NCBI GenBank assembly: GCA_016649835.1
Contig: JAENWX010000001.1
Coordinates: 1-47,298, forward strand
Length of the DNA: 47,298 bases
Reading direction: 5' to 3'
DNA from: Minisyncoccota bacterium
GTDB taxonomy: Bacteria; Patescibacteriota; Minisyncoccia; Phycocordibacterales; UBA9973
This document shows, one piece after another, positions 12,001-40,364 of the stretch (positions are counted from its first letter, which is position 1; every line of letters begins with the position of its first letter). The notes under the pieces were generated by a model that was not told where the DNA came from, ran no database searches, and saw only the letters and a program-made list of their open reading frames with translations. The position numbers were made by a program, and so were the translations under genes.

Positions 12001-15000
12001 TTTGCTAATGAAGTAGCAACAACGGCAGGTCAAACAATTACACCATCTGAAAAAATGACAATATTAGGAGCATCAGGCAACGTCGGCATCGGGACGACGA
12101 ATCCGGTGAGCGCTTTGAATGTTGCAGGTACAACAGGATTAACATGGGGAAATGGTAGTTCGCCATCAAAAGGTTTACTGACCGTTGGTTCTCAGGGTAC
12201 GGGAGGAAGTTCTTTGTTCGTTAACACCCCTGGGTATGCATCAACATTTGGTGCTGGGTTTGGGGTTGATGGAACTTTTAGCGGGTCTACTGCAACAATA
12301 AATTTGAAAGCATTTGGAATATTTCCAGGAGATACTGGTTGGGGGTCAAACTTAACATTTTCTACAACCTTAGATAATACTCTCAATGAGAGAATGAGGA
12401 TGGATAAGAACGGCAACGTCGGCATCGGGACGACGGGGCCGACAGCTAAATTAGAGGTTGGAGGTAATTTTATTGGTTCAGCACCAGTTGATGCTATTGT
12501 AATAAGAGCATTAACTGATGGACAGTATCAAGGAGGATTTATAAATTGGAAAGCTAACATTGCTTCCAGTAACTTTTCTTTAAGTAAGATATATGGAGGG
12601 AGAGATAATGTAGAAGCTTCATCTAAATTAGGATTTTTTACTAATAGTGATATTTATAATGTTGCTGACCTATCTTCTGAAAAAATGACTATTTTAGGAA
12701 ACGGCAACGTCGGCATCGGGACGACGAGTCCAGGGTCAAAACTTGATGTGAATGGAACTATCGCTGTTAGACAATCTAGCAATGGAACAAGTGGGACACC
12801 TTTGGAAACCATAGGACTGCTTGGAACTAACAGCTTGGGAAATACTGGTATTCCTATGCCTTCCATAAATTTTGTAAACTCTTGGACTACTAACAATAAT
12901 TCATGGATGAATTTTCATGTTCGTAATAACACTATTGATACTGTTGCAATGACTCTTCTATATAACGGCAACGTCGGCATCGGGACGACGGCACCGATGT
13001 ATAAATTAGATTTGGGCAACACATCACTTGATAGTAATACATTGAGATTTGGTGTTGGGACACGGAATTCAACTGGTGCACAGTATCCTGCCAAAATAGA
13101 TTTATATGTATATGACGCTAATCCTGTTAATCAATATTTAAGATTTTATGCCCCAAACGGTAATCCAAGTGGTGCGACAGAAGCTGATAGACAAACATTG
13201 GGAATGGTCATCAATGGAAACGGCAACGTCGGCATCGGGACGACGAGTCCTGCGACACAAATGCATATTGTTGGCGTGGGTCAAAGAACCGCAGCTTTAA
13301 CTGATGCGGGCGCTAAAGGCTCAACACTTTTTCTTGAGGATCCAACAAGTGATACCGGAACCGGTGGTGCTATAACTTTTGGCGGTGGAGCAGCGAATGG
13401 TAGTGTGCCACAAGCAGCAATAAAACTTCTACTATCTAATGGAGGAGCGAATGGTACGGGTGACCTTGCTTTCTCCACTCGTAATGTGGCGTCAGATGTA
13501 GCTCTAACAGAAAGGATGAGAATATTAAATAACGGCAACGTCGGCATCGGGACGGTGGGACCGGGGGCATTGTTGCATCTTGGCAAAGCAGGGAGTCTTA
13601 ACGAATCTGATACTGCGTTTGACTTAGCCGACTCTGATACTCTGCTTAAATTGGAAAACACTGGTCCATCTTATGGCTCAGAAACAGCTTTGTCTTTAGG
13701 TGCAACGGTTTCTTCTGCCTACAGGCCAGCTGGACTCATTACGGGTAAATTTTGGGGACCCTCCGACTTTAACAGTGGACGTCTCGGATTCTCAACATCA
13801 AATTCTGGCACACTTGGCTTGCGTATGGTGATTGATGAAACTGGCAACGTCGGCATCGGGACGACGAGTCCACAAGTTCCATTAACTATTTATGGCTCTT
13901 CTGGAAATGTTGATATAAATGTAGGGAGTAGAAATGGAGTAGCGACTGGAAAAGCATTAGTATTAAGATATAATTTAACTGATGACTATGGACAGATTGC
14001 TAGTTATGATTATGCAACAGGTGCAAAAAATTTAGTTATTAACCCAATTGGTGGCAACGTCGGCATCGGGACGACGGCACCACAAGCCAAGCTGACTATA
14101 AAGGGTAATCAATTATTTGCGGGTAATCCCGATATTGGTTCTTACGGGAAGTTAGAAGCTGTCTATGATGGAAACATTGCTACTTACGGCACAGCTGCGA
14201 GTATAGATTTTTATCGTCCGATAGCAACATACGGTAATGAAGGAGAAATTCGTTTTAGCACCAGTCCAGGAGTAGGTGGTGTATCAACTCCAACACAGAG
14301 AATGGTAATAGATAAGAATGGCAACGTCGGCATCGGGATGACGGCACCGGGGGCGAAGTTGGATGTTGTATACCCAGGTACTATCGGAACATCTTTAACA
14401 ACTTTAAGGGCATTTGGATATGATGCAGATAGTTATTTTAGTGTGTCAAATGACGCAAATAATTCAGCAAATGTTGCGCTTTACAGGTCTGATACAATAA
14501 AGATGTTTGAGGTTCTTGGTCATACCGGTAAAGCATATTTTAACGGCAACGTCGGCATCGGGACGACGGGGCCGAGTGGCAAACTCGATGTTGCTGGTGG
14601 TACGGCATATTTCTCTGGTCTAAGTACAGCCGCGCGTCAAGTGATTGGTCTTTCTAGTGATGGAGTTACAAATCAAATTCAATCAACTTATCTAGGTGCT
14701 TCTAGCTTCGTGCCTCTGGCGTTTCAAGTTGGTGGGGGGGAAAAGGTCAGAATATTAACAAACGGCAACGTCGGCATCGGGACGACGGGGCCGACGTATA
14801 AATTAGAAGTGAACGGAGGAGCCACTTCCCCTTTATCTGTTTATTCAAGCAGCGATTATCAGTTAGGGCTAAGGAATACAGGAGATGCTGGTGGTTGGTG
14901 GCTTAAGAGCTATGGTGCGGGAGCATTTGCTTTACATGAAAATGGAATTGGAGATAAATTAACTTTTGATGATAGTGCAACTGGAAATGTGTATTTTCAA

Positions 15001-16026
15001 AACATAGGCAACGTCGGCATCGGGACGACGAATCCGAGTACAAATAAATTGGTTGTCGTCGGAGATATAAGAGTTGGAACAACTGGTACAGATGGTTGTA
15101 TACAAAGATTCGATGGTACAGCTCTCACCGGTTCTTGTTCATCAGATATTAGATTAAAGAAAGACATTAATTCTATCACAGGAGTTTTAGAAAACTTTGT
15201 TAACCTAAATCCAGTTACTTACAAATGGAGAGCTGATGAGTACCCAGAGAGAGGATTTGGTACAGGTATGGTTACAGGTTTAATTGCTCAAGAAGTAGAA
15301 GGTATCTTTCCTGAATTAGTAAACAAAGACAGTCAGGACTTCTTTACAGTAGACTACGGAGTGAATTTACAAATGCTATCCATACAAGCGATTAAGGAAC
15401 TCAATTTGAAAGTGGAAGATTTGTCTTCGCTTGATATAAAAAATCCTACTTCATTTGGATCTCTTATTAAATATTTCTTAGCCGATATTAGTAATGGCTT
15501 AGAGAAGATTTTTGTTAAAGAGGTAAATACTGACACTTTGTGTGTTTACGATGCTACAGGAGCCAAAACCTGTATAAATAAGGCTCAATTGGACGCATTG
15601 TTGGTTGGTGTCGGAACGACTTATAGTGGTTCCAGTAGTAGTTCAAGTGAGAGTAATGTTGTTCTATCAAGTTTTGATGAGAATTTAGTAAATGCTAAAA
15701 CAGAAGCCAATGGAAAAATAGAAACAGATTATACATCAGAAAGTTGGGGAACATTTAATTCAGCATTAACTCTAGATTTAGAATTATCAGAGACAAATGA
15801 TGAAGAAAAAATTACAAAAACAAATGCCATCAATGATGCAATTTCAGGATTAGAATTATTAATAGTGGAAGAAGTTGTTGATGTACTACCAGAGGAAGTT
15901 CCTCCAGCTGAAGAGCCGGTGGTTGAAGCTCCAGCGGAAGAACCCGTAGTTGAAGCTCCAGCGGAAGAGCCGGTAGTTGAGCCAACAGCAGTTGAAACGA
16001 TAGTTGAGCCAGCTCCAGTAGAATAA
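6004..16026 (+). CDS. Giant (~3340 aa) membrane-anchored repetitive surface protein: HTH-like N-terminus, one TM, and a Peptidase S74-like intramolecular chaperone motif in the C-terminal region
   Basis: One uninterrupted ORF; the track starts at TTG 5968 and the first ATG is 6004. The N-terminus LSLNQAAEISGYTQDYLGYLVRIGEIKGVKKGGVWFITKEEL resembles an excisionase/MerR-type HTH, followed by the TM FLVSALIIFVGLSSVGAYLF. A T/G/S/N-rich region follows, then 17 modules containing NGNVGIGTT. CSSDIRLKKDI...LIAQEVEGIFPELV matches the tail-fibre autoproteolysis motif. Confidence 0.85.
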   Translation: MQLLDNIISLNQAAEISGYTQDYLGYLVRIGEIKGVKKGGVWFITKEELNDYLLKKKPIQTDSNTKDFFQKIWHKKIDVKDFISHLSPRNFLVSALIIFVGLSSVGAYLFEKNNYNQTLSSAFQSFVLSDHTEEVKANKIGDLLSNVSDGLAYGWSEFTFEILDDIKNSTNTTKELVAFVGAEVANRVQLVGDRITSVLNNTKKFFTNTKKFVAVVKTPVPDRKVPLGSSLKASAIDSLKSGSDSLTSISTGLANGWITFTDWILNNIKNSIIGTKEFAVSVGDGAKFVGNSITNEITSQRTVISAWGHSIPSKIVSIWNSTKKFVIDFISQPPKLIVKSPIVIPPSLTTTAPTIKVEVPEPEASSIAGSQRPATSASGSTTIIQRIYEQPQTTIINQVDPTLFSRIQGIELALLNNISHNSNQTNRIYDSVGRSISGASNNITEEGTLNNTTINDATLVNFTSTGNALFTKVPTLAHAFDPSWPSDISNVSNSSLYINPASSVLDGNLLGLAVGGVVKFLVDTEGDIYGNSLILTGSVTQGNTTVENLTVGGNIILGDASTDTLTINSANWTFANDTNFALSGGLNGLSFDTDTLFIDSLNHRIGIGTTNPGSKLEVAGTFSQTGANTFGTGTGVISLNGATTITGINTFTTGTGTVEFKNVSTNISSINPVIDTTDATSTLSINTVTNRPTTFGTGLVTIPNLLITNSQGNNGTMGITSSATTETIFSVTGASLTSGTGIAENITANANNGEITKGHTITITDATVGGGGYTALSISTSGAGVGLGNKYLLDMNPGANKEVVFDSAGAFRPTTSVASNTNTIGSSDFYWKNGYFDQITANNISGVVVGGATSSTSWTIGSTQVADVNESLIFYRNNLGAGNASLQWNAGAGDLRHFTVNYPFNATYTVNDTSITTGVNLYSGNLVNNTTTGTQKLLSLTNTGTGTTETGIYIGNTGTGTTALEVAGTWTNGIITNNNSINAGSGAITGGAGTFTTLNGNTITTGTGILTISAGKTLTISDSTTFGTNAITLAGGEVITFSPANALSLLTTGGTSVTLPTTGTLATLAGAEALTNKTIVAGSNTISGIINANLSGTAGISNANLANSTISGISLGGTLPTLTFGTHLSGISYNGSTAVTIATDATDANTAGTIVSRDAFGNFSAGAITSGLINSQTISSNASFTGTVNAVTGYKLNGIATSGNVLRGDGINFVNATLGGSDITGAALTKTDDTNITLTLGGTPATSLLRATSLTLGWSGLLSPARGGTGVNNGTNTLTLGGNLITSGAFATTLTTSGITALTLPTSGTLYSTATGSITSLSVLTSVSDETGSGALVFATSPTLVTPVLGAATATTVNALTLTAAADGFTIAGGTVSRTLTVTGADASISGTHTGTSSGTNTGDNATNSQYSGLAASKLDTGLALLLAGGTMTGGITNSTSVNPLTTLAESWIGPSSTTGVYFNGGNVGIGNTSPDSKLSINSSTDNVSIMTLRFPSGSNADKVGILFKGNDGTYNINYAEMIGGVENWSNDDGFIGFRTAKATTLAERMRLTSNGTLEVGFNYTGTSGTLANGMIVEGNVGIGTTNPAQKLHVEGSPAIGTTGTESMLLLGRALSGGVSFNQAAAFKLGRWQNAGGTYESFTRLDIALKDDDAVNDYSTDVTVMSLQNNGNVGIGTTSPNANLEVVGATGIIQTINTTAEGLGYFTTLKSEYASNTGYLAFAGGGGTGKVIGGAAYGVDTVLFANNTERVRILNNGNVGIGTTSPQAKLQIGSNINTIPASTALSTVGGTTIRFLNGDGNADYGSYLASGGTAQLTLGSRYASIDTDVLTVNNGNVGIGTTGPGAKLDVVGTSVAGGAEGIYVSNTTSGNANKALLGVTSATFSYGSLGGNETVLFNAATSPISLVTADAQPIKFITNYAEAMRIQSNGNVGIGTTAPGEKLEVNGKIKVLGAFGSIIGYRSFGSNFSMDSSGVYTTTDTHASYGYSGMVASWGSLHFFANEVATTAGQTITPSEKMTILGASGNVGIGTTNPVSALNVAGTTGLTWGNGSSPSKGLLTVGSQGTGGSSLFVNTPGYASTFGAGFGVDGTFSGSTATINLKAFGIFPGDTGWGSNLTFSTTLDNTLNERMRMDKNGNVGIGTTGPTAKLEVGGNFIGSAPVDAIVIRALTDGQYQGGFINWKANIASSNFSLSKIYGGRDNVEASSKLGFFTNSDIYNVADLSSEKMTILGNGNVGIGTTSPGSKLDVNGTIAVRQSSNGTSGTPLETIGLLGTNSLGNTGIPMPSINFVNSWTTNNNSWMNFHVRNNTIDTVAMTLLYNGNVGIGTTAPMYKLDLGNTSLDSNTLRFGVGTRNSTGAQYPAKIDLYVYDANPVNQYLRFYAPNGNPSGATEADRQTLGMVINGNGNVGIGTTSPATQMHIVGVGQRTAALTDAGAKGSTLFLEDPTSDTGTGGAITFGGGAANGSVPQAAIKLLLSNGGANGTGDLAFSTRNVASDVALTERMRILNNGNVGIGTVGPGALLHLGKAGSLNESDTAFDLADSDTLLKLENTGPSYGSETALSLGATVSSAYRPAGLITGKFWGPSDFNSGRLGFSTSNSGTLGLRMVIDETGNVGIGTTSPQVPLTIYGSSGNVDINVGSRNGVATGKALVLRYNLTDDYGQIASYDYATGAKNLVINPIGGNVGIGTTAPQAKLTIKGNQLFAGNPDIGSYGKLEAVYDGNIATYGTAASIDFYRPIATYGNEGEIRFSTSPGVGGVSTPTQRMVIDKNGNVGIGMTAPGAKLDVVYPGTIGTSLTTLRAFGYDADSYFSVSNDANNSANVALYRSDTIKMFEVLGHTGKAYFNGNVGIGTTGPSGKLDVAGGTAYFSGLSTAARQVIGLSSDGVTNQIQSTYLGASSFVPLAFQVGGGEKVRILTNGNVGIGTTGPTYKLEVNGGATSPLSVYSSSDYQLGLRNTGDAGGWWLKSYGAGAFALHENGIGDKLTFDDSATGNVYFQNIGNVGIGTTNPSTNKLVVVGDIRVGTTGTDGCIQRFDGTALTGSCSSDIRLKKDINSITGVLENFVNLNPVTYKWRADEYPERGFGTGMVTGLIAQEVEGIFPELVNKDSQDFFTVDYGVNLQMLSIQAIKELNLKVEDLSSLDIKNPTSFGSLIKYFLADISNGLEKIFVKEVNTDTLCVYDATGAKTCINKAQLDALLVGVGTTYSGSSSSSSESNVVLSSFDENLVNAKTEANGKIETDYTSESWGTFNSALTLDLELSETNDEEKITKTNAINDAISGLELLIVEEVVDVLPEEVPPAEEPVVEAPAEEPVVEAPAEEPVVEPTAVETIVEPAPVE
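10738..15030 (+). repeat. 17 in-frame copies of the GC-rich core GGCAACGTCGGCATCGGGACGACG
   Basis: Core starts at 10738, 11014, 11272, 11506, 11791, 12076, 12412, 12703, 12967, 13222, 13534, 13843, 14053, 14320, 14545, 14764 and 15007. Fourteen copies are identical over 24 nt and three differ by 1-2 nt. Spacings of 210-336 nt are all multiples of 3. Confidence 0.95.
15907..15987 (+). repeat. 27-nt tandem repeat x3 encoding AEEPVVEAP
   Basis: Read directly at the extreme C-terminus of the giant ORF. Confidence 0.85.
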
Positions 16027-18526: not shown

Positions 18527-20215
18527 ATGGTAAATCGTCTTATTACATTTTTAAATAGAGAATTTCATGGAGTAAATGAGGCAGCTCTTTTGCTTGGTGG
18601 CTTTGCCTTTTTATCTCAAATATTAGGACTTGTTAGAGACAGGGCACTTGCTCACATGGTGGGGGCAGGTCCTATTTTGGATGTTTATTATGCTGCTTTT
18701 AGAATACCTGATTTTTTGTATATATCTATTGCTTCTCTTGCTTCGGTTACAGTATTGATGCCATTTTTAATGGACAAGATTAACAACAATACCGACACCA
18801 ACGAAAAAGCAAAATCGTTCATAAATAATATATTTAGTGCATATATGATGTTTATGGTGGCGGCAAGTATTATAATAGCTATTTTTATGCCATACATCGT
18901 ATCTTATATGTTTCCTGGTTTTAATGACTACCAGATTGGCTTACTAATAACCACAAGTAGAATAATGCTTATTTCTCCAATTTTTATTGGATTATCAAAT
19001 TTGATAGGTACTGTAACTCAATTGTTTAGAAATTTTATTATTTTTTCTTTATCTCCAGTATTTTATAATTTTGGAATTTTGTATGGCGTTTTATTTCTGT
19101 ATCCCAAGTTTGGAATTCACGGCTTAAGCATAGGTGTTATTATAGGAGCTTTTTTGCATTTCTTAATACAAGTTCCTGTAGTATTAAAACATAATTTTTT
19201 TCCTAAATTTATTTTAAAAATAAGATGGAAAGAAATATTTCAGGTAATGAAAGTATCTGCGCCTAGAACATTTACACTGTCATGTAATAGTTTAGCCTTT
19301 ATATTTTTAATAGGTATGGCATCAACGCTTAAACCAGGTTCTATTTCCTTGTTTACTTTTGCATTTAATCTGCAGTCTGTTCCCGTAGGAATCATAGGTA
19401 TTTCGTATTCAGTAGCTGCTTTTCCTATTTTAGTTAGATCATTTTCAATGAAAGATATGGATAATTTTATAGGGCAAATAATTTTTGCGGCTAAACAAAT
19501 TATATTTTGGTCTCTACCCATAATAACTCTTTTGATTGTGTTAAGAGCACAGATAGTTCGTGTCATATTGGGTTCTGATACTTTTTCTTGGTTTGATACA
19601 CGCTTAACAGCAGCATCTGTTGCACTTTTTGTAATATCACTTGTTTCTCAAGGACTAGTGTTGTTATTTGTGCGTGGTTATTATGCTGCTGGTAATACAA
19701 AAAAACCATTAATTATTAATGTATTTTCTTCTGTTATGGTTATTGTTTTTGCTAAACTATTTATTTTTATTTTTAAAAATTATCCAGATGTACTTTCAAG
19801 GCTTGAAATAATTTTAAGAGTTAAAGACGTTCCAGGTACTATTATGCTAGCTTTACCACTTGCTTATGCACTCGGCTCACTTCTAAATTTCTTTTTAATA
19901 TGGTTTATGTTTAATAAAGATTTTATTAATAGCACAAAAATTAGTTTGTCTTTAACTTTTATAAAGAGTTTAATAGGGGCACTTGTTATGGGAATTATTG
20001 CTTATCTTTCTTTGGGATTCTTTGATAATATTTTTGACTTAAATACAGGAAAGGGTGTTTTCCTCCAGGGATTTATATCTGGAATTCTAGGCATACTTTC
20101 TGGAGTATTAGTTTTGCTATTATTAAAAAGCGAGGAATTGTTGGGTATTATTTCAGCTCTTAAAAATAAATTTTGGGAAAATAGAATTATTGTTCCAGAA
20201 CAATCCGACCTATAA
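18527..20215 (+). CDS. murJ: Lipid II flippase MurJ/MviN (MOP superfamily)
   Basis: 562 aa polytopic. The N-terminal SQILGLVRDRALAHMVGAGPILDVYYAAFRIPDFLY matches the MurJ signature. Confidence 0.8.
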   Translation: MVNRLITFLNREFHGVNEAALLLGGFAFLSQILGLVRDRALAHMVGAGPILDVYYAAFRIPDFLYISIASLASVTVLMPFLMDKINNNTDTNEKAKSFINNIFSAYMMFMVAASIIIAIFMPYIVSYMFPGFNDYQIGLLITTSRIMLISPIFIGLSNLIGTVTQLFRNFIIFSLSPVFYNFGILYGVLFLYPKFGIHGLSIGVIIGAFLHFLIQVPVVLKHNFFPKFILKIRWKEIFQVMKVSAPRTFTLSCNSLAFIFLIGMASTLKPGSISLFTFAFNLQSVPVGIIGISYSVAAFPILVRSFSMKDMDNFIGQIIFAAKQIIFWSLPIITLLIVLRAQIVRVILGSDTFSWFDTRLTAASVALFVISLVSQGLVLLFVRGYYAAGNTKKPLIINVFSSVMVIVFAKLFIFIFKNYPDVLSRLEIILRVKDVPGTIMLALPLAYALGSLLNFFLIWFMFNKDFINSTKISLSLTFIKSLIGALVMGIIAYLSLGFFDNIFDLNTGKGVFLQGFISGILGILSGVLVLLLLKSEELLGIISALKNKFWENRIIVPEQSDL

Positions 20216-20222
20216 TCTATTC

Positions 20223-20255
20223 TCTTCAGAAAGGGCCTTAGGCCCTTTCTGAAGA
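20223..20255. repeat. REP-like perfect palindrome, copy 1 (inverted orientation)
   Basis: TCTTCAGAAAGGGCC-tta-GGCCCTTTCTGAAGA, 15-bp stem. It begins 8 nt after the murJ stop and lies 26 nt upstream of the transposase ATG. Confidence 0.85.
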
Positions 20256-20265
20256 ATTCGTATTA

Positions 20266-20274
20266 TGATATAAT
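20266..20274 (+). promoter_or_regulatory. Candidate extended -10 (TGATATAAT) giving a leaderless transposase mRNA
   Basis: TGnTATAAT ends 6 nt before ATG 20281. Confidence 0.35.
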
Positions 20275-20280
20275 ATTACA

Positions 20281-20955
20281 ATGAGAAAACAACCTATTAT
20301 TACAGGTGAGTATTATCACATATATAACCGTGGAGTTGATAAACGAGATGTTTTTAGTGATAAAATGGATATTAGACGTTTTGTTGAAAGTATAAATGAA
20401 TTTAATCAAGTTGATGTAATAGGAAGTTTGATTAATTTAAGAAAATCTAAAAATATCCAGAAAGGGCCTAAGGCCCTTTCTGAGGAACCATTAGTTGTTA
20501 TAATGGTATATTGTTTGAATCCAAATCATTTTCACTTTGTCTTGAAGCAATTAGAAGATGGAGGAATATCAAAGTTTATGCAAAAATTACAAAGTGGATA
20601 TACTTCTTATTTTAATGTAAAAAATTCTAGATCCGGTTCACTATTCCAGGGAACTTTTAAAGCACAACATATAGGTAGTGAAAATTATTTTAATAAAACT
20701 CTCGGATATGTAAATAAAAATTATCAAGTTCATAATATTCCAGAGGATAAAAAAGAATTAGTTTTTGCCAGTGATTATGAATATGAAAATAATAATTTTA
20801 AAATTGTTTCAAAAATAGAGGGAAATAGAATTTTAGAAATTTTTGGTGGAGTTGGTGGATTTAAAAGACATTCAGATGAAATAGTTGAGATTATTAGGAA
20901 GGAAAGAGGCAAGACTTCTCTTTTAGAAGATGAAGAATTACCAGAAAGGGCCTAA
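20281..20955 (+). CDS. HUH/Y1 transposase, IS200-like, REP-associated (RAYT-like)
   Basis: 224 aa. YHIYNRGVDKRDVF, HUH motif in NPNHFHFVLK, GYTSYFN, and GSLFQGTFKAQHI (compare the G.WQ.RF..H pattern of RAYTs). The palindrome occurs upstream, inside, and at the stop codon. Confidence 0.7.
   Translation: MRKQPIITGEYYHIYNRGVDKRDVFSDKMDIRRFVESINEFNQVDVIGSLINLRKSKNIQKGPKALSEEPLVVIMVYCLNPNHFHFVLKQLEDGGISKFMQKLQSGYTSYFNVKNSRSGSLFQGTFKAQHIGSENYFNKTLGYVNKNYQVHNIPEDKKELVFASDYEYENNNFKIVSKIEGNRILEIFGGVGGFKRHSDEIVEIIRKERGKTSLLEDEELPERA
20458..20482. repeat. REP-like palindrome, copy 2, in frame inside the transposase ORF
   Basis: CAGAAAGGGCC-taa-GGCCCTTTCTG, read in frame as QKGPKALSE. Confidence 0.85.
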
Positions 20956-20966
20956 GGCCCTTTCTG
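20942..20966. repeat. REP-like palindrome, copy 3, supplying the transposase stop codon
   Basis: CAGAAAGGGCC-taa-GGCCCTTTCTG. The loop TAA (20953-20955) is the ORF stop, in a different frame from copy 2. Followed by (GAGT)3. Confidence 0.85.
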
Positions 20967-21130
20967 AGTGAGTGAGTGTTATTTGAGGCCTTTGATTTTA
21001 AAGCTTTTTTTGGTAGTATAGACCTATGTCTCCGCTCGCGATGTGTATGTCATAATCTACGGGATAGTTTATAATAGAAATAAGGTTTATATTACTAAAT
21101 AAAATTAATAAGATACGTCCCATCTAACGA

Positions 21131-21148
21131 GGGACTATCTCTAACGGG
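21131..21148 (+). promoter_or_regulatory. Start-codon-abutting motif GGACTATCTCTAACGGG|ATG (right-arm-like half of the 28574/33744 cassette)
   Basis: Compare GACCTGTTTCTAACGGG|ATG (valS) and GACCTATTTCTAAACGGG|ATA (murC). Confidence 0.5.
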
Positions 21149-23014
21149 ATGGATATCAAATCAATTAGAAACTTTTCAATCATTGCCCATATTGACCACG
21201 GGAAAAGTACTTTGGCTGACAGAATGATAGAAGTTACTGGCACAATAGAAAAACGTAAAATGAAAGACCAAGTTCTAGATTCAATGGATCTAGAAAGAGA
21301 ACGCGGCATAACTATTAAGATGCAGCCGGTTCGCATGGAATATAGTCCTAAAATTAAGAATGATAAATTAGGAATTAAGAATGATAATATAAAACCAGAA
21401 AAATACATATTAAACCTAATCGATACTCCTGGCCACATAGACTTCTCCTATGAAGTATCTCGCGCCTTAAAGGCCGTAGAAGGGTCTATATTGCTCGTGG
21501 ATGCGACTCAAGGGGTTCAAGCACAAACACTTACAACTCTACAAATGGCTCGTGATTCTGGGCTAGTTATAATTCCAGTTCTTTCAAAAATTGACTCTCC
21601 TCTAGCTCGTGTGGATGAAATAAAAATGGAGGTGTCTATTTTGTTGAATATAGACCCGGATACTATTTTGCTTGTTTCTGGTAAAACAGGGGAAGGTGTA
21701 CCTGAATTACTTGAAGAAATAATTAATAAAATTCCATGTCCTCATGTTGATAATAATATATTACCAACAAGCACAGGTGCACGTGCTTTAGTTTTTGATT
21801 TTAAATATGACAATCACAGAGGTGTAATAGTTTATATTCGAGTAGTAGATGGAAAATTTAAAAAAGGAGAATCTCTTTTGTTCGCTGTGTCTTCAGAAAA
21901 ATTTATTTCCCTAGAAGTGGGTATTTTTTCTCCACAAGAGGAAGCGCGGGAAACTCTGGGTAATGGAGAAATTGGATACATAGTAACAGGAATTAAAAAG
22001 CCCGGAATTGCTTCTGTTGGTGACACTATAACTTTTTTGAAAAATCCAATGCCAGCATTGCCGGGATATAAAAATCCAAAGCCTGTGGTTTGGGCTTCTA
22101 TATATCCTGAAAGCCAGGATGATTTTCCAAATCTTAAACAAGCATTAAGTAGGCTGCGTTTATCGGATTCATCATTTTCTTATGAAGAAGAAAATTCTGG
22201 TTCTCTAGGAAGAGGGTATCGATGTGGTTTTTTGGGAATGCTTCATTTAGAAATTATTACAGAAAGACTAAATCGTGAATTTAATTTAGAATTAATAGTA
22301 ACTATGCCTTCCATTACTTACAAGGTAATGCTTCGAAATGGCACAGAACAAATTGTATATTCTCCGCATCTTTTTCCTGATGATGGAAATATAATAAAGG
22401 TTTTTGAGCCATGGGTTAATGCAAAGATTATTACCCCTTCTATATATTTAAGTTCACTTATGCCATTTTTGTATGACCATGAAGGACTAGTTAAAGAAAC
22501 TGATAATTTTGGAGATAACAGATCTTCTGTTGATTTAGAAATGCCACTACGTGAATTAATGAGAAATTTCTTTGATGATATGAAAAGTATTACATCTGGT
22601 TATTCTTCTATATCTTATGAAATAGGTGAGTATAAAGAAGCTGATGTTGTGAGACTTGATATTATAGTAGCAGATGAACCGATGGCAGCATTTTGTAGAG
22701 TAGTATCACGAAGAAAAGTAGAAGAAGAAGCTAAACAGCAAGTAGAAAAATTAAAAGATATTATTCCAAGACAACAATTTAATTTTAAAATTCAAGGTAA
22801 GGCTTTGGGTAGGATTATATCATCTGAGTCAGTTTCAGCCTTTAGAAAAGACGTTCTCATGCACGGAAGTAAAATGGTTGGAGGAGGGGATGTGAGTCGC
22901 AAAAAGAAGCTGCTTGAAAAGCAGAAAAAAGGAAAAAAGAGAATGCAATCGAACGCTAAGATAAATATATCTCACGAAGTTTTCCTTAAAATGATGAGAG
23001 GAACCAATAATTAA
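21149..23014 (+). CDS. lepA: Elongation factor 4 (LepA)
   Basis: 621 aa. IRNFSIIAHIDHGKSTLADR, LNLIDTPGHIDF, and a LepA C-terminal region. Confidence 0.95.
   Translation: MDIKSIRNFSIIAHIDHGKSTLADRMIEVTGTIEKRKMKDQVLDSMDLERERGITIKMQPVRMEYSPKIKNDKLGIKNDNIKPEKYILNLIDTPGHIDFSYEVSRALKAVEGSILLVDATQGVQAQTLTTLQMARDSGLVIIPVLSKIDSPLARVDEIKMEVSILLNIDPDTILLVSGKTGEGVPELLEEIINKIPCPHVDNNILPTSTGARALVFDFKYDNHRGVIVYIRVVDGKFKKGESLLFAVSSEKFISLEVGIFSPQEEARETLGNGEIGYIVTGIKKPGIASVGDTITFLKNPMPALPGYKNPKPVVWASIYPESQDDFPNLKQALSRLRLSDSSFSYEEENSGSLGRGYRCGFLGMLHLEIITERLNREFNLELIVTMPSITYKVMLRNGTEQIVYSPHLFPDDGNIIKVFEPWVNAKIITPSIYLSSLMPFLYDHEGLVKETDNFGDNRSSVDLEMPLRELMRNFFDDMKSITSGYSSISYEIGEYKEADVVRLDIIVADEPMAAFCRVVSRRKVEEEAKQQVEKLKDIIPRQQFNFKIQGKALGRIISSESVSAFRKDVLMHGSKMVGGGDVSRKKKLLEKQKKGKKRMQSNAKINISHEVFLKMMRGTNN
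21352..21393 (+). repeat. 21-nt tandem duplication containing AATTAAGAAT, in frame in lepA
   Basis: AATTAAGAATGATAAATTAGG / AATTAAGAATGATAATATAAA encodes KIKNDKLGIKNDNIK, in the segment between RMEY and YILNLIDTPGH that looks longer than in the LepA sequences I recall (from memory, not aligned). Confidence 0.75.
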
Positions 23015-23576: not shown

Positions 23577-23647
23577 GCGAGTATAATACAGTGGCAGTAT
23601 ATTTGCTTCCCAAGCAAAATACGCGGGTTCGATTCCCGCTACTCGCA
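23577..23647 (+). tRNA. tRNA-Gly (anticodon CCC)
   Basis: Hand-folded cloverleaf. Acceptor GCGAGTA/TACTCGC, D stem ATAC/GTAT, anticodon stem TTTGC/GCAAA, loop TTCCCAA, 4-nt variable loop, T arm GCGGG-TTCGATT-CCCGC, discriminator A. No encoded CCA. Confidence 0.9.
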
Positions 23648-23688
23648 CATATTAAAAAACACTTTTTGGAGTGTTTTTTAATATGTGC
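23645..23688. terminator. AT-rich 19-bp perfect palindrome (terminator-like) overlapping the tRNA-Gly 3' end
   Basis: GCACATATTAAAAAACACT-ttttgg-AGTGTTTTTTAATATGTGC. Confidence 0.55.
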
Positions 23689-23806
23689 GGGATAGCAAGC
23701 CAACTGCTTGGCTTGCGTACGGGAATTGAAAGACTTTTCGTTCTCTGATGTTAACCAGAGCAAAAAGTACCTGAACATGTAATGTTCGATTCCCGCTACT
23801 CGCACC
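23686..23806 (+). ncRNA. tRNA-tethered structured element, copy A (Gly)
   Basis: GCGGGATA; P2 23695-23716 (GCAAGCCAA-ctgc-TTGGCTTGC); CGGGAATTGAA (23720-23730) pairs with TTCGATTCCCG (23785-23795); AGAC; P4 CTTTTC...GAAAAG; TACC; P5 23773-23787 (GAACA-tgtaa-TGTTC). 23785-23804 is an exact copy of the tRNA-Gly 3' end. Strand and RNA status are unproven. Confidence 0.5.
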
Positions 23807-24790: not shown

Positions 24791-24863
24791 GCCGAGATAG
24801 CTCAGTTGGTAGAGCGCTCCCCTGAAGAGGGATAGGTCCCCAGTTCAAATCTGGGTCTCGGCA
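24791..24863 (+). tRNA. tRNA-Phe (anticodon GAA)
   Basis: GCCGAGA-TA-GCTC-AGTTGGTA-GAGC..., anticodon loop CTGAAGA, T arm CCCAG-TTCAAAT-CTGGG, acceptor 3' TCTCGGC, discriminator A. Confidence 0.9.
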
Positions 24864-24896
24864 CACGAAATAATATAAGTTTAATAATAAAACTTT

Positions 24897-24938
24897 CCTT
24901 CAGGTGAGATAGCCAGTTCAAATCTGGGTCTCGGCACA
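24897..24938 (+). pseudogene. tRNA-Phe fragment (mosaic) ending in an exact 25-nt copy of the tRNA 3' end
   Basis: CAGTTCAAATCTGGGTCTCGGCACA (24914-24938) equals 24841-24865. It is preceded by GAGATAGC (matching the tRNA 5' region) and TTCAGGTGAG (resembling the complement of the anticodon arm). Confidence 0.6.
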
Positions 24939-24971
24939 AAATAAAAATACCCGTCAGGGTATTTTTATTAT

Positions 24972-25086
24972 GCCGAGACAACACATGAACTACTTCATGT
25001 GTGTCCAGATTTGAAAGACTTTTCATTATCAGCTGTGCTGATTGAAAAGTACCCGACTAAGTAATAGTCTAATCTGGGTCTCGGCA
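24972..25086 (+). ncRNA. tRNA-tethered structured element, copy C (Phe)
   Basis: P1 GCCGAGAC/GTCTCGGC; P2 24980-25003 (AACACATGAA-ctac-TTCATGTGT); P3 CCAGATT (25005-25011)/AATCTGG (25071-25077); AGAC; P4 CTTTTCA..ATCAG-c-tgtg-CTGAT.TGAAAAG; TACCC; P5 25055-25069 (GACTA-agtaa-TAGTC). Confidence 0.5.
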
Positions 25087-25094
25087 CAATAAAT

Positions 25095-26380: not shown

Positions 26381-28573
26381 CTACGCCTTCGGCCACTTCT
26401 CAACAATTAATAATCTCTTATTTTCAACTGCCCCGCCTGCAGAAGCATTTCGGGCAGGCATCATGCCCCATATTTCTTCTGTAACAAAAGGCATAAATGG
26501 ATGAAGAATTTTTATAGATTTTTCTAAAATTTCAACCAACAAAGTTTGTCTTGATTGCTTTGCTTTTTCATCGTCACCAGCAATAATTGGTTTACTTTCC
26601 TCTATAATTTTATCAGCAAATTTATCCCATATGTAATGATATATTTTTTCAGATGCCATATAAAAACGAAAGTTTTCCATATCATTAGTTATATCTTTAA
26701 TTTCAGTATCAAGTTCACCCATTATATTTCTATCAATTTCATTTAGTTCTGATTTATGAAATTTTTCTGGAATATTAGAAAATACAAATCTTGATATGTT
26801 CCATAATTTATTTGCAAAATTTTTATATCCTTTAATTCTATCTCTTGAAAGGGCAAGATCCATTCCAGGAGTATTTCCAACCACAAGTGCTATTCGCAGT
26901 GCGTCTGCTCCAAAAATATCAATAAGTTCTACAGGATTAACAACGTTACCTTTTGATTTACTCATTTTTTCTCCCTTCTCATCATTTACTAATCCATGGA
27001 GATAAACATTTTGAAAGGCGACTTCGTTGCGTAAATATAATCCAAAAATAACCATTCTTGGTATCCATTTAAAAATTAGGTCTCGGCCTGTTTCCATCAC
27101 ACTAGTAGGATGATATATATCTAAATCTTTTGTATTAGGGTATCCAAGAGAAAGAAGTGTCCATTGTCCAGAAGAGAACCATGTATCAAATGTATCAGTA
27201 TCTTTTCTGAGTTCTCCTCCACAATCACATTTTTTTAATTCATTGTTTAAATCAGAAAATCCTTTTTTGCAAACATTACATATTTTAGCTGGAATAGGAA
27301 TACCCCAGACAATCTGCCTTGATATATTCCAGTCAATAGTATTTGTCATCCAATATCTAAAAATTTTTTCATAATTTTCTGGATAGAATTTTATTTTGCC
27401 ACTATTTACAGCATCTAGTGCTCGGTCTGCAAGAGGTCTCATTTTAACAAACCACTGGTCTTTAATTTGTGGTTCTATAATAGTGTTACATTTAAAACAC
27501 ACTTTTACATTGTGTTTATAAGATTCATCTATTTTAACTAAAAGTCCTTTTTCTTTTAACTTTTCAACAATCATGGGTCTTGCTTTAGAAATGTGAATTC
27601 CTTCAAATTCTCCAGATATAGCCAGTAGTTTTCCTTTCCAGTCTATTATTTGCTCCTTTTCTAGGTTGTGTCTTTCTGCTATCTCAAAGTCAACTTGGTC
27701 GTGCCATGGAGTTATGGTCATAACTCCTGTTCCAAATTCCATATCAACACTTTCATCTTTTATTATTGTTGCAGTAATGGGACCATTTATCCATTCCAGT
27801 TCTATTTTTTGACCATCTTTATATTCCTCGTATCTTTTATCTTTTGGATGCATTACTACGTATTTATCTCCGAATTTTGTTTCAGGACGAGAAGTACTTA
27901 TTACAAAAGGACCATATTGAAGATAATAAAATTGTTCAGTTCGTTCTTCAAATTCAGTTTCAACTTCAGAAAGGGAAGTCTGATGTTTGGCACACCAGTT
28001 TACGATACGGTCACCACGATAGATTAATCCATCTTTAAACATTTTGTCAAAAGTTTCTTGAACGGTTTTTACTATTTCTGGGTCCAGTGTAAATTTTTCT
28101 CTTGACCAGTCACAAGATGCTCCAAGTCTACGAATATCATCTTCCATGAATTTTTTATTAGAAATAGTAAAATCATATATTTCTTTATATAAATCTTCTG
28201 GTGTCATTTCAAATCTAGAACGGCCTTCTTTTTCTAATTTACGTTCATAAACAATTTGAGTTTCAAATCCAGCGTGGTCGGCTCCCGGTACCCATAGAGT
28301 ACGTTCACCTTTCATTCGATGATATCTTGTCATTATGTCTTCAAGTGTTACGAAAAGTGCATGTCCAGCATGTAGTCGTCCGTTTGCATTTGGTGGAGGC
28401 ATTACTATTGTGAAAGGTTTTGCTTCTTTATCTGTCACACCTTTTTCAATACAAATATCTGGATTAAAATATCCACTTTCTTCCCATAGTTTGTAAATAC
28501 GATCCTCTGTTTCTTTGGGGTCATATGGTTTTAAAAATTTCGGGTTTATGTTATTGTTCTGGTCATTATTCAT
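26381..28573 (-). CDS. valS: Valine--tRNA ligase (short form, no C-terminal coiled coil)
   Basis: 730 aa. PPPNANGRLHAGHAL, KMSKSKGN, and a Cys-rich insertion (CNVCKK...CDCGG). Confidence 0.9.
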   Translation of the reverse strand: MNNDQNNNINPKFLKPYDPKETEDRIYKLWEESGYFNPDICIEKGVTDKEAKPFTIVMPPPNANGRLHAGHALFVTLEDIMTRYHRMKGERTLWVPGADHAGFETQIVYERKLEKEGRSRFEMTPEDLYKEIYDFTISNKKFMEDDIRRLGASCDWSREKFTLDPEIVKTVQETFDKMFKDGLIYRGDRIVNWCAKHQTSLSEVETEFEERTEQFYYLQYGPFVISTSRPETKFGDKYVVMHPKDKRYEEYKDGQKIELEWINGPITATIIKDESVDMEFGTGVMTITPWHDQVDFEIAERHNLEKEQIIDWKGKLLAISGEFEGIHISKARPMIVEKLKEKGLLVKIDESYKHNVKVCFKCNTIIEPQIKDQWFVKMRPLADRALDAVNSGKIKFYPENYEKIFRYWMTNTIDWNISRQIVWGIPIPAKICNVCKKGFSDLNNELKKCDCGGELRKDTDTFDTWFSSGQWTLLSLGYPNTKDLDIYHPTSVMETGRDLIFKWIPRMVIFGLYLRNEVAFQNVYLHGLVNDEKGEKMSKSKGNVVNPVELIDIFGADALRIALVVGNTPGMDLALSRDRIKGYKNFANKLWNISRFVFSNIPEKFHKSELNEIDRNIMGELDTEIKDITNDMENFRFYMASEKIYHYIWDKFADKIIEESKPIIAGDDEKAKQSRQTLLVEILEKSIKILHPFMPFVTEEIWGMMPARNASAGGAVENKRLLIVEKWPKA
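26432..26458 (-). repeat. CCTGCC...GGCGGG hairpin element in valS (sense orientation, in frame)
   Basis: Minus strand: GCCTGCCCGAAATGCTTCTGCAGGCGGGG, encoding MPARNASAGGA near the C-terminus. Confidence 0.65.
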
Positions 28574-28690
28574 CCCGTTAGAAACAGGTCGCGGTCTAAA
28601 AGATTAAGACTTTGCCCTGATAAATTAAATTTTATTAATATAGATATAATTATGTTCCTATCATATACTGCGACCGCGGTTTCTAACGGG
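28574..28690 (-). promoter_or_regulatory. Inverted-repeat cassette directly abutting the valS start codon
   Basis: Arms CCCGTTAGAAACAGGTCGCGGTC (28574-28596) and GCGACCGCGGTTTCTAACGGG (28670-28690) flank 73 nt of AT-rich DNA. The valS ATG (28573-28571) touches the arm. Confidence 0.6.
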
Positions 28691-28733
28691 AGACATGTAT
28701 AGAATATAACATTTTAGGGATTTATTTGAAAGT

Positions 28734-32221: not shown

Positions 32222-32251
32222 TTAAGAATTAATAATTACGAATTAAGAATT
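32219..32251. repeat. AATTAAG/AATTACG heptamer repeats between murE and murD
   Basis: TAATTAAGAATTAATAATTACGAATTAAGAATT, starting in the murE stop codon. Confidence 0.7.
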
Positions 32252-32259
32252 TAAAAAAA

Positions 32260-33723: not shown

Positions 33724-33743
33724 AATGTAATATGGATTTAGAT

Positions 33744-40360: not shown

Positions 40361-40364
40361 AGAT

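What the first reader, a model, noticed from the sequence alone, without database searches (positions are those of the whole stretch)
20223..20978. REPtron-like unit: a Y1/HUH transposase gene bracketed, interrupted and truncated by copies of one perfect palindrome
CAGAAAGGGCC-N3-GGCCCTTTCTG occurs three times:
- At 20223-20255, with an extended 15-bp stem and loop TTA, in inverted orientation.
- At 20458-20482, loop TAA, read through in frame as QKGPKALSE.
- At 20942-20966, loop TAA, used as the ORF stop in another frame.

The encoded protein has the HUH (HFH) and G.LFQG.FK..HI signatures of REP-associated tyrosine transposases. Those genes are typically flanked by inverted copies of their cognate REP. 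A REP copy tolerated in frame inside its own transposase, and another setting its C-terminus, is unusual. RAYT/REP systems are described mainly from Proteobacteria. No further copy of this palindrome occurs in the window.
Basis: partly seen in the sequence, partly recalled or inferred. Interest (0 to 1): 0.6.

Follow-up and report, generated by a model that had tools for sequence, protein, structure and literature searches.

The report
Hairpin-studded Y1 nuclease gene, conserved design
A small HUH/tyrosine DNA-cutting enzyme gene of an ultra-small (Patescibacteria) bacterium carries three copies of one perfect DNA hairpin: at its promoter, inside its reading frame and over its stop codon. This is not damage but a layout kept across the gene family, in which the hairpin sequence changes from genome to genome yet stays the same at all three sites.

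Summary
CAGAAAGGGCC-N3-GGCCCTTTCTG occurs three times, at 20227-20251 (15-bp stem, 20223-20255), 20458-20482 (in frame) and 20942-20966 (loop TAA is the stop codon). It occurs nowhere else in 47 kb.

The gene is not interrupted or truncated. It is a full-length 224-aa Y1/HUH protein. Pfam Y1_Tnp is above cut-off, and the best fold match is the E. coli REP-associated transposase 4ER8. It belongs to a very large Patescibacteria family.

Of 77 related loci, 38 have all three hairpins at the same places and 21 have two. Stems differ between loci (66 distinct arms) but are identical within a locus in 71% of pairs, against 2% between loci. Some copies even share a mismatch. This is concerted evolution by copying.

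The upstream hairpin abuts a conserved extended -10 box 6 nt before the ATG, which implies a leaderless mRNA. The gene sits upstream of lepA in five related loci (murJ also upstream in two) and is about as conserved as LepA.

Dispersed copies are nearly absent in this clade. They are present, with REPIN-like doublets, in distant clades.

Best reading: a domesticated, RAYT-like "minimal REPtron" whose hairpins are the enzyme's own cis sites. It is a new variant of a known kind. The mechanism is inferred.

The parts
20223..20255 (.). Upstream hairpin (U): 15-bp perfect stem, loop TTA, whose core is identical to the other two copies. It lies 8 nt after the murJ stop codon and 10 nt before the TG of the extended -10 box.
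   Evidence: -16.8 kcal/mol. A cognate hairpin occupies this slot in 61 of 77 related loci. The gap between the hairpin and the -10 box is mostly 0-18 nt. It is terminator-like for murJ on the + strand.
20266..20274 (+). Extended -10 promoter box TGATATAAT, 6 nt before the ATG, with no Shine-Dalgarno sequence. This implies a leaderless mRNA starting at about 20281 (inferred).
   Evidence: Sequence. In 60 of 77 loci a hexamer matching TATAAT at 5 of 6 positions or better ends 3-16 nt before the ATG. It ends exactly 6 nt before in 30 loci, and 39 carry the TG extension. Control positions give 4-9 of 77. None of the 77 loci has an SD-like tetramer at -16..-4.
20281..20955 (+). Gene for a 224-aa Y1/HUH nuclease of the RAYT (TnpA-REP) type, full length.
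   Evidence: Pfam Y1_Tnp above its gathering score. More than 4000 homologues of the same length. AlphaFold2 model with pLDDT 90.5. Top Foldseek hit 4ER8, then IS608 and ISDra2 TnpA.
20458..20482 (.). Internal hairpin (I): 11-bp stem, loop TAA, read in frame as QKGPKALS(E) (residues 60-68).
   Evidence: It codes a low-confidence loop (pLDDT below 50 at residues 61-63) between helix 50-58 and strand 72-79. This linker is hypervariable, 20-49 aa long across the family. For the same slot in 46 loci, 93.4% of cells are paired and 10 of 11 pairs show changes on both sides.
20527..20535 (+). HUH motif codons (H83-F84-H85).
   Evidence: CAT TTT CAC. H83 and H85 are invariant in an 84-sequence alignment reaching down to 32% identity.
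20707..20721 (+). Catalytic-helix motif Y143-V-N-K-N147 (Y---N).
   Evidence: Y143 and N147 are invariant. The H85-to-Y143 distance is 57-58 residues throughout the family. The role of the Asn as metal ligand is inferred by analogy with E. coli TnpA-REP N119 (PMC6006769).
20942..20966 (.). 3' hairpin (D): 11-bp stem. Its loop TAA (20953-20955) is the stop codon, and its left arm codes the C-terminal residues P-E-R-A.
   Evidence: The stop codon lies in or over the loop in 28 loci, and 0-27 nt (0-16 nt in 22) before the hairpin in 23. The C-terminal residues 213-224 are disordered in the model. No T-run follows the hairpin.

Best explanation
The unit is the native, conserved form of a Patescibacteria-specific family of domesticated Y1/HUH enzymes related to REP-associated tyrosine transposases. 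I call it a 'minimal REPtron'.

Shown:
- The gene is intact, keeps all catalytic residues and is vertically inherited upstream of lepA.
- In most family members it carries the same short perfect hairpin at three fixed places: over the -35/spacer region of its own leaderless promoter, in frame in a disordered linker before the HUH strand, and on or next to the stop codon.
- The hairpin sequence evolves faster than the protein. It is kept (nearly) identical at the three places, including shared mismatches and exact reverse-complement copies.

Inferred:
- The hairpins are the enzyme's own recognition sites, bound as single-stranded DNA stem-loops as in the E. coli RAYT-REP complex.
- The enzyme's cut-and-rejoin activity, possibly together with template switching within and between palindromes, overwrites one copy with another. 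Substrate and enzyme therefore drift together.
- In some lineages the same activity seeds solitary or doublet copies elsewhere.
- Binding at the promoter-overlapping copy gives negative autoregulation and insulates the gene from murJ read-through.
- The internal copy is a substrate copy that cannot be lost without destroying the gene. It may also act as a brake on expression.
For: Enzyme identity:
- Pfam Y1_Tnp scores 30.8 bits against a cut-off of 23.
- H83, H85, Y143 and N147 are invariant over 84 sequences down to 32% identity.
- The model has pLDDT 90.5. Its best PDB match is 4ER8, a RAYT bound to a REP hairpin (E = 1.8e-5, 180 aligned columns), ahead of IS608 and ISDra2 TnpA.

Conserved layout, from 77 complete loci:
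- 38 have hairpins at all three slots (U, I and D), 14 have U and D, 7 have another pair, and only 3 have none.
- The internal hairpin is in the same frame in 42 of 47 loci.
- The stop codon lies in the loop or just before the 3' hairpin.

Covariation of the internal hairpin:
- 93.4% of cells are paired, against 61.3% in shuffles (0 of 500 reach the observed value) and 32-44% in the slid controls.
- 10 of 11 pairs show changes on both sides.

Concerted evolution:
- Arms are identical in 71% of within-locus pairs and 2.1% of between-locus pairs, with 66 distinct arms.
- Arms at the same slot are identical in only 44% of locus pairs at 80-90% protein identity, and in 11% at 70-80%.
- In L045 all three copies share one A.C mismatch, and D is the exact reverse complement of I. 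In L023, U is the reverse complement of D, mismatch included.
- Hybrid loci (L007, L011, L027, L031, L041) show replacement one site at a time.

Promoter: a conserved extended -10 box sits 6 nt before the ATG, there is no SD sequence, and the hairpin lies directly upstream.

Domestication: the gene is syntenic with lepA in the window and in L001, L004, L005, L007 and L014. Y1 identity is 67-88% and LepA identity 75-83%.

Link to REP behaviour:
- Distant clades have intergenic solitary copies, inverted doublets and copies inside other ORFs.
- Five solitary exact copies of this very palindrome exist in metagenome contigs, mostly intergenic.
Against: - No biochemical or read-level evidence of activity. 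Only assembled contigs were available for the source permafrost runs, they show no joints, and no RNA run was found.
- The palindrome is almost confined to the gene in this clade: 0 extra copies in 47 kb and 0 extra exact copies in a relative's 225-kb contig. An enzyme that disperses REPs is therefore not demonstrated here.
- Perfect, symmetric palindromes without the unpaired GT[AG]G foot differ from characterised RAYT substrates.
- A dimeric protein could instead read them as double-stranded operators.
- The NCBIfam REP_Tyr_transpos model scores 27.9 bits against a cut-off of 80.
- The hairpins used for the statistics were chosen by a pairing threshold, which inflates 'percent paired'. It does not inflate within-locus identity or positional conservation.
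Confidence: 0.6

Rival explanations
1. Autonomous IS200/IS605-type insertion sequence. U and D would be the subterminal hairpins of a roughly 740-bp mobile element that still transposes as a unit.
For: A Y1 enzyme gene is bounded by matching hairpins. Several genomes hold 2-3 family members in different contexts. IS608 and ISDra2 TnpA are good fold matches.
Against: - The chromosomal place (upstream of lepA) is the same in the window and five other loci spanning 67-88% identity, and divergence matches LepA.
- Paralogues within one genome are old (about 50-70% identical) and each has a different hairpin. There are no near-identical copies.
- No tnpB.
- The Tyr motif is Y---N, not the Y---Q of class 1 (PMC6006769).
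- The ends are usually inverted relative to each other, unlike IS608 LE/RE.
- The third, internal copy is unexplained.
Confidence: 0.08
2. Ordinary RNA or transcription signals. The hairpins would be terminators, attenuators or mRNA stabilisers selected for structure only, unrelated to the enzyme's specificity.
For: The stems are GC-rich and stable in an AT-rich genome. U scores as terminator-like after murJ, and I and D score as terminator-like on the minus strand. Solitary copies look like terminator stems, for example L084 flanked by A- and T-runs.
Against: - Selection on structure alone does not explain identical sequence at three sites, shared mismatches or exact reverse-complement copies.
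- U lies upstream of the -10 box, so it is outside the gene's own transcript.
- 3' hairpins lack T-tails: a mean of 3.8 T in 10 nt, and only 13% have 6 or more.
- No Rfam family matches.
Confidence: 0.1
3. Double-stranded palindromic operators. The protein, perhaps through its family-specific helical C-terminal domain (residues about 150-212), would bind the three palindromes as duplex DNA purely as an autorepressor, and the HUH chemistry would serve some other substrate.
For: The palindromes are perfectly two-fold symmetric with a 3-nt centre. U overlaps the -35/spacer region. The C-terminal helical domain is conserved and has no known family. Additional single-arm repeats next to some hairpins resemble iterons.
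Against: - Operators are not expected inside the coding frame and on the stop codon at fixed places.
- Stems as long as 16-22 bp occur at some sites, and site-specific outer extensions keep the pairing.
- Loop flips and inverted copies point to hairpin or cruciform chemistry.
- The closest solved structure binds a REP as a single-stranded hairpin.
Confidence: 0.15
4. One reading: recent insertions of a mobile REP that interrupt and truncate a transposase gene.
For: There are three identical copies in 744 bp, one of them in frame and one supplying the stop codon.
Against: - Orthologues and paralogues down to about 43% identity carry hairpins at the same positions and in the same frame.
- Protein length is the family norm.
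- The catalytic residues are intact.
Confidence: 0.02

Closest known systems
REPtrons: tnpA-REP / RAYT genes flanked by cognate REPs (E. coli yafM type, TnpAY1 subclass 2.2; structure 4ER8)
   Same: - A Y1/HUH enzyme with a Y---N catalytic helix.
- Low copy number and vertical inheritance.
- The gene is bracketed by copies of its own hairpin, usually in inverted orientation.
- Each paralogue has its own hairpin family.
- 4ER8 is the best fold match.
   Different: - The stems are perfect and symmetric, without the unpaired GT[AG]G guide.
- Dispersed copies are almost absent in this clade.
- There is an obligatory in-frame copy and a copy at the stop codon.
- The protein has an extra C-terminal helical domain.
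- The NCBIfam equivalog score is far below cut-off.
- The host is Patescibacteria.
TnpAY1 subclass 2.4 / Bertels group 4 RAYTs (Cyanobacteria, Bacteroidetes), which carry REPs inserted in frame within tnpA-REP (PMC6006769)
   Same: The gene's own REP is read in frame inside the gene. The REPs are symmetric ('double foot'). The HuH motif is NH[IFV]H.
   Different: [quoted passage not shown] Here the hairpin is at one fixed site before the HuH strand and is conserved across the family.
- The 2.4 motifs WQ and YIxNNP are not present. This family has LFQG and YVN.N.
TnpAY1 subclass 2.1 / Bertels group 1 / TIRYT (PMC6006769, PMC3733652)
   Same: - The motifs are closest: NH[YF]H, FQ in place of WQ, and Y[IV].LN.
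- Similar length of about 220-240 aa, with a conserved C-terminal extension.
- Some clade-B loci carry DnaA-box-like TTATCCACA or TTTTCCACA motifs beside the hairpins. The DnaA-like C-terminal domain described for subclass 2.1 comes to mind here.
   Different: - Subclass 2.1 was reported to have no associated REP-like hairpins (terminal inverted repeats at most).
- Here the P of Y---NP is missing.
- No Bac_DnaA_C or HTH Pfam hit was found in the C-terminal domain.
IS200/IS605 TnpA (IS608, ISDra2)
   Same: The same fold and HUH/Tyr chemistry, and hairpins near both ends of the gene.
   Different: This family has Y---N rather than Y---Q, no tnpB, no multicopy identical elements, conserved synteny, perfect rather than imperfect palindromes, and mostly inverted ends.
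Rickettsia palindromic elements and other intragenic REPs read in frame (PMC3733652)
   Same: A palindromic repeat is tolerated as extra peptide in a surface loop, and REP ends can supply stop codons.
   Different: Those are sporadic insertions in unrelated genes. Here the site is fixed and ancient, and it lies in the gene of the presumed cognate enzyme.

Membership tests
Y1 HUH transposase superfamily (Pfam PF01797, Y1_Tnp) | Profile score at or above the Pfam gathering threshold | tested here: met
   30.8 bits against a cut-off of 23. Nine of ten further family members are also above cut-off.
Y1 HUH transposase superfamily (Pfam PF01797, Y1_Tnp) | HUH motif plus a single catalytic Tyr about 58-67 residues downstream on a helix, with a polar metal ligand four residues later | tested here: met
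   H83-F-H85, Y143 and N147 are invariant in 84 sequences. The spacing is 57-58 residues. The Tyr lies in helix 134-145 of the model. The catalytic role itself is inferred.
Y1 HUH transposase superfamily (Pfam PF01797, Y1_Tnp) | Y1 fold | tested here: met
   A pLDDT-90.5 model. The top 19 Foldseek PDB hits are 4ER8, IS608 TnpA and ISDra2 TnpA, all with probability 1.00.
RAYT / TnpA-REP (TnpAY1 class 2) | Class-2 Tyr motif Y---NP (PMC6006769) | tested here: inconclusive
   Y---N is invariant, but the next residue is Y, D, S or another residue, not P.
RAYT / TnpA-REP (TnpAY1 class 2) | NCBIfam equivalog NF047646 (REP_Tyr_transpos) cut-off | tested here: not met
   27.9 bits against a cut-off of 80.
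RAYT / TnpA-REP (TnpAY1 class 2) | Gene flanked by copies of a cognate palindrome (REPtron arrangement) | tested here: met
   U at 20223-20255 and D at 20942-20966. Of 77 related loci, 52 have both U and D.
RAYT / TnpA-REP (TnpAY1 class 2) | The same palindrome is dispersed in many intergenic copies genome-wide (a REP/REPIN population) | tested here: not met
   - 0 further copies in the 47-kb window at up to 3 mismatches.
- Only the triplet occurs in a relative's 225-kb contig, and 5 solitary exact copies in all JGI metagenome contigs.
- Near zero in the 20-kb loci of this clade.
- Dispersed copies and doublets do occur in distant clades.
- Whole genomes could not be scanned.
RAYT / TnpA-REP (TnpAY1 class 2) | Unpaired GT[AG]G guide tetranucleotide at the 5' foot of the hairpin | tested here: not met
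   The foot is CAGA[A/T]AG, paired with its complement inside a perfect stem.
RAYT / TnpA-REP (TnpAY1 class 2) | Low copy number, vertical inheritance and housekeeping-like conservation (PMC5581495) | tested here: met
   One copy in the window. Synteny with lepA in the window and five other loci, with Y1 identity 67-88% against LepA identity 75-83%.
IS200/IS605 insertion sequence | Y---Q motif, frequent tnpB partner, several near-identical copies, and imperfect subterminal hairpins in the same orientation | tested here: not met
   - The motif is Y---N.
- The neighbours are MurJ and LepA.
- There is no second copy in the window, and paralogues elsewhere are about 50-70% identical.
- The palindromes are perfect, and U is mostly inverted relative to D.
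TnpAY1 subclass 2.4 (in-frame REP carriers) | [quoted passage not shown] | tested here: not met
   The hairpin lies at residues 60-68, before HuH (83-85). The motifs here are LFQG and YVNKNY.

The most novel reading that the evidence does not exclude
The family is a self-addressed HUH enzyme. It keeps an obligatory copy of its own DNA substrate inside its reading frame, on its promoter and on its stop codon. Its own cut-and-rejoin activity continually overwrites these three sites from one another.

Two things would follow. Expression would be throttled by the product. Enzyme specificity and substrate would be locked together and could drift as a pair. That would explain how dozens of different hairpin-enzyme pairs arose in tiny genomes that tolerate almost no dispersed repeats. 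It would also be the first comparative evidence for in-situ REP replacement by a RAYT-like enzyme.
Probability: 0.3. Interest if true: 0.8.

Novelty: new variant of a known kind. Interest (0 to 1): 0.6.

Why it matters
What RAYT-type enzymes do for their hosts, and how they stay matched to their REPs, is still open.

This family offers a natural series for that question. There are 66 distinct hairpin arms among 77 loci. The family spans 363 clusters at 50% identity with E at or below 1e-30, and more than 4000 clusters at 90% identity. In each member the enzyme gene and three copies of its presumed substrate sit within 750 bp, so cognate pairs can be read straight from the sequence.

Three things follow:
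- The recognition code of Y1/HUH enzymes becomes directly testable. That is also useful for orthogonal HUH tags.
- It gives a clean case of concerted evolution of a protein and its sites.
- Ultra-reduced Patescibacteria genomes retain, under selection as strong as on LepA, a transposase-derived gene whose only evident targets are on itself.

Tried and rejected
- Reads. The source runs (permafrost metagenomes) are held only as contigs. Laying them showed unitig breaks at the three palindromes but no joints or deletions. No RNA run was found.
- Rfam, at gathering and at E <= 1 thresholds: nothing relevant.
- Sequence search of the PDB, with the single protein and with the profile: no Y1 hit. Only the fold comparison worked.
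- The first AlphaFold2 model, from 28 close homologues, was poor (pLDDT 55.5). It was replaced by a model from 84 diverse sequences.
- Conservation of synonymous codons along the gene was uninformative in this AT-rich genome.
- C-terminal domain: no Pfam, PHROG or DnaA_C-like hit.
- DnaA-box enrichment is only about 2.3-fold overall and limited to a sub-clade. It was kept as a side observation.
- The 3' hairpin as an intrinsic terminator: rejected for lack of T-tails.
- Literature searches for RAYT or tyrosine transposases in the CPR/Patescibacteria found nothing.
- A full phylogeny against the published RAYT subclasses was not possible, because their sequences were not at hand. Motifs and fold were used instead.
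Full report
**1. The observation**

The pattern CAGAAAGGGCC-N3-GGCCCTTTCTG occurs exactly three times in the 47,298-base window. No further match appears at up to three mismatches, and none is expected by chance. Its 8-nt half-sites occur nowhere else.

- The upstream copy (U) extends to a 15-bp perfect stem at 20223-20255, with loop TTA.
- The internal copy (I, 20458-20482, loop TAA) begins on a codon boundary of ORF 20281-20955 and is read as QKGPKALS(E).
- The 3' copy (D, 20942-20966) has its loop TAA at 20953-20955, which is the ORF's stop codon.
- As single-stranded DNA they fold at -16.8, -12.3 and -12.4 kcal/mol, 5 to 8 standard deviations below shuffles.

**2. The gene and its neighbours**

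The 224-aa product matches Pfam Y1_Tnp above the gathering score (30.8 bits against 23). It scores far below the NCBIfam cut-off for the E. coli-type REP-associated transposase (27.9 bits against 80).

A first model from close homologues was poor. A model built on 84 diverse relatives reached pLDDT 90.5 and pTM 0.87. Its best match among solved structures is 4ER8, the E. coli REP-associated tyrosine transposase bound to a REP hairpin. IS608 and ISDra2 TnpA follow.

H83, H85, Y143 and N147 are invariant down to 32% identity, and the HuH-to-Tyr spacing is fixed at 57-58 residues. By the published motif scheme (PMC6006769) the family combines NH[FY]H, LFQG and Y-V-N-x-N. This is class-2 (RAYT-like, Y---N) rather than class-1 IS200 (Y---Q), and is closest to subclass 2.1, but it lacks the proline.

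The neighbours are MurJ (18527-20215) and LepA (21149-23014). There is no tnpB. The window comes from a low-GC Patescibacteria (Paceibacteria/Nomurabacteria-like) genome in permafrost metagenomes.

**3. Not interrupted and not truncated**

More than 4000 homologue clusters (90% identity) of 215-230 aa exist. A full scan of 1.84 billion representatives gives 363 clusters (50% identity) at E <= 1e-30 and 4690 at E <= 1e-10.

In alignments, the internal '...PKALS' stretch and the C-terminal 'LPD[RS]A' are part of the family consensus. Both turn out to be dictated by the hairpin DNA. For example, CAG ATA GCG CCT AAG GCG CTA TCT reads QIAPKALS.

**4. The three-hairpin layout is a family trait**

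I fetched 80 related loci from species-representative genomes and scanned them for hairpins.

Of 77 loci with a complete gene and flanks:

| Hairpins found | Loci |
|---|---|
| All three slots (U, I, D) | 38 |
| U and D | 14 |
| I and D | 4 |
| U and I | 3 |
| One slot only | 15 |
| None | 3 |

- The slots are U at about -40 to -110, I at about +165 to +190, and D at the stop codon.
- The internal hairpin is in the same reading frame in 42 of 47 loci.
- The stop codon lies in or over the loop of D in 28 loci (the query's clade). It lies before the hairpin in 23, by 0-16 nt in all but one (27 nt).
- The layout reaches members only about 43-55% identical, from other Patescibacteria classes (L076-L080).

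In the model, the peptide coded by I (residues 60-68) is a low-confidence loop between helix 50-58 and strand 72-79. The tail coded by D is disordered. That linker varies from 20 to 49 residues and is hypervariable across the family.

**5. Covariation and concerted evolution**

For the internal slot aligned over 46 loci:
- 93.4% of cells pair, against 61.3% in shuffles (0 of 500 reach the observed value) and 32-44% when partners are slid.
- 10 of 11 pairs show changes on both sides.

The loci were chosen by a pairing threshold, which inflates the first figure.

The stems differ widely between loci, with 66 distinct 8-nt arms. Within a locus, however, arms are identical in 71% of pairs, against 2.1% between loci.

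The hairpin evolves faster than the protein. At 80-90% protein identity, arms at the same slot are identical in only 44% of locus pairs. At 70-80% the figure is 11%.

Copies also share defects:
- In L045 all three carry the same A.C mismatch, and D is the exact reverse complement of I.
- In L023, U is the exact reverse complement of D, mismatch included.

Hybrid loci (L007, L011, L027, L031, L041) have one site of a different type that is itself still a perfect palindrome. Independent selection for pairing cannot produce this pattern. The copies must be overwritten from one another.

Loop orientation:
- U is usually inverted relative to I and D (22 and 26 cases, against 11 and 10 in the same orientation).
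- I and D usually share orientation (27 against 10).
- Flips are common, especially in the distant clade.

**6. The promoter**

In 60 of 77 loci a -10 hexamer matching TATAAT at 5 of 6 positions or better ends 3-16 nt before the ATG. It ends exactly 6 nt before in 30 loci, 39 carry a TG extension, and controls give 4-9 of 77. No locus has a Shine-Dalgarno-like tetramer.

In the window this box is TGATATAAT at 20266-20274. The mRNA is therefore probably leaderless. The U hairpin ends 0-18 nt upstream of the -10 box in most loci, so it covers the spacer and -35 region and lies outside the gene's own transcript. This argues for a DNA-level role for U, either autoregulation or insulation from murJ read-through. 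One search scores U as terminator-like.

D is generally not followed by a T-run, so it is not a canonical terminator.

**7. Domesticated rather than mobile**

The gene lies upstream of lepA in the window and in L001, L004, L005, L007 and L014, with murJ further upstream in L005 and L014.

| Locus | Y1 identity (%) | LepA identity (%) |
|---|---|---|
| L001 | 88 | 82 |
| L004 | 72 | 77 |
| L005 | 71 | 76 |
| L007 | 82 | 83 |
| L014 | 67 | 75 |

The two track each other. Across these orthologous sites the hairpin has changed from GAAAGGGCC to GATAGGGCC, GATAGAG and GATAGAGGT. Several genomes hold two or three old paralogues, each with its own hairpin.

**8. Dispersal**

In this clade the hairpin is almost confined to the gene:
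- There are no extra copies in the window.
- There are nearly none in the 20-kb loci.
- In all JGI metagenome contigs the exact palindrome occurs in only eight stretches. Three are Y1 loci: two with the full triplet, one of them on a 225-kb contig that has no other copy, and one with two exact copies.
- The other five are solitary copies, mostly intergenic, with stems extended by different flanks. Variants with mismatches would have been missed by this exact search.

In the distant clade (stems ...GGGTGT or ...GACGT, loops CCA/TGG) the loci do contain several intergenic copies, inverted doublets resembling REPINs, and copies inside other ORFs. The family as a whole therefore behaves like RAYT/REP systems. 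The window's member is a minimal form.

**9. Mechanism**

Shown: the anatomy, the conservation, the covariation, the concerted evolution, the promoter geometry and the synteny.

Inferred:
- The Y1 enzyme binds these stem-loops as single-stranded DNA, as in 4ER8.
- Its cleavage and rejoining, perhaps with intra-palindrome template switching that keeps the stems perfect, copies one site over another and occasionally seeds new sites.
- Occupancy of U represses the promoter.
- The in-frame copy is a substrate copy that cannot be deleted without killing the gene, and it may slow expression.

Rivals are an active IS, pure RNA or terminator signals, and duplex operators. They are weighed in the Rival explanations section. 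None explains three identical, co-varying copies at fixed positions as well as the main model does.

**10. Comparison with what is known**

[quoted passage not shown] REPs that overlap gene ends or supply stop codons are also known, as are REPtrons in species without REP families (PMC6006769, PMC3733652).

New here:
- A fixed, ancient, family-wide triple arrangement with perfect symmetric stems.
- Demonstrable homogenisation of the three copies.
- A promoter-overlapping copy on a leaderless gene.
- The host group. Three literature searches found no description of RAYT-like systems in Patescibacteria.

**Verdict.** This is a new variant of a known kind, with interest 0.6.

Noticed in passing
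window 21085-21155 (upstream of and into the lepA start), also 28572-28585 (-), 28679-28691, 33742-33754: A motif (G)TTTCTAACGGGATG, whose last three bases are the start codon, recurs at gene starts in the window. About 45 nt around the lepA start match many other contigs of the same metagenomes with 2-4 mismatches, at up to 4 times the local depth. It may be a shared translation-start or leader element. No Rfam hit.
   Followed up: partly
window 23627-23648 / 23784-23805; 24840-24865 / 24913-24939 / 25071-25089; 23726-23739 / 25011-25024: The 3' ends of tRNA-Gly(CCC) and tRNA-Phe(GAA) are repeated once and twice downstream of the genes. The repeats are interleaved with long terminator-like hairpins and a shared TTGAAAGACTTTTC motif. 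These look like att-site remnants or tRNA-fragment repeats.
   Followed up: no
window 6004-16026 (+): A 3340-aa ORF of markedly higher GC (0.39-0.46 against about 0.30). It contains about 20 copies of the nucleotide repeat GGCAACGTCGGCATCGGGACGACG (peptide GNVGIGTT). It is probably a giant repetitive surface protein. The GC rise is not an rRNA operon, since Rfam finds only three tRNAs.
   Followed up: no
window 38-61 and 29231-29254 (partial copy at 3576-3589): An identical 24-nt GC-rich motif, GTCCTCGGATGAGGGAGGACGAGG, which contains a GTCCTC/GAGGAC stem, occurs twice 29 kb apart.
   Followed up: no
L046, L059, L060, L061, L067 (3-10 nt after the 3' hairpin); L051, L053, L058, L062, L063, L065, L068 (about -55 to -115 upstream): In a sub-clade of distant family members, DnaA-box-like sequences (TTATCCACA or TTTTCCACA) sit right beside the cognate hairpins. 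In L062 the box is part of both arms of a 25-bp stem. Overall enrichment near the genes is only about 2.3-fold. The DnaA-like C-terminal domain reported for TnpAY1 subclass 2.1 comes to mind here, but no such Pfam hit was found.
   Followed up: partly
L021 (after D), L042 (after U), L056 (after D), L010, L017 and L068 (before or after U): Tandem repeats of a single hairpin arm (half-sites, for example AACCTCTATCTG three times and ACGTCTGAGTTT four to five times) lie next to the full hairpins. They are iteron-like or products of slippage.
   Followed up: no
L053 16505-18262, L061 16187-17824: Cognate hairpins of the distant clade lie inside other long ORFs (three copies in one ORF of L053). These may be in-frame intragenic REP insertions in unrelated genes.
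   Followed up: no
window 705-750, 32220-32252, 32430-32454, 40357-40384: Short tandem arrays of the heptamers AATTAAG and AATTACG occur at several intergenic or gene-end sites.
   Followed up: no
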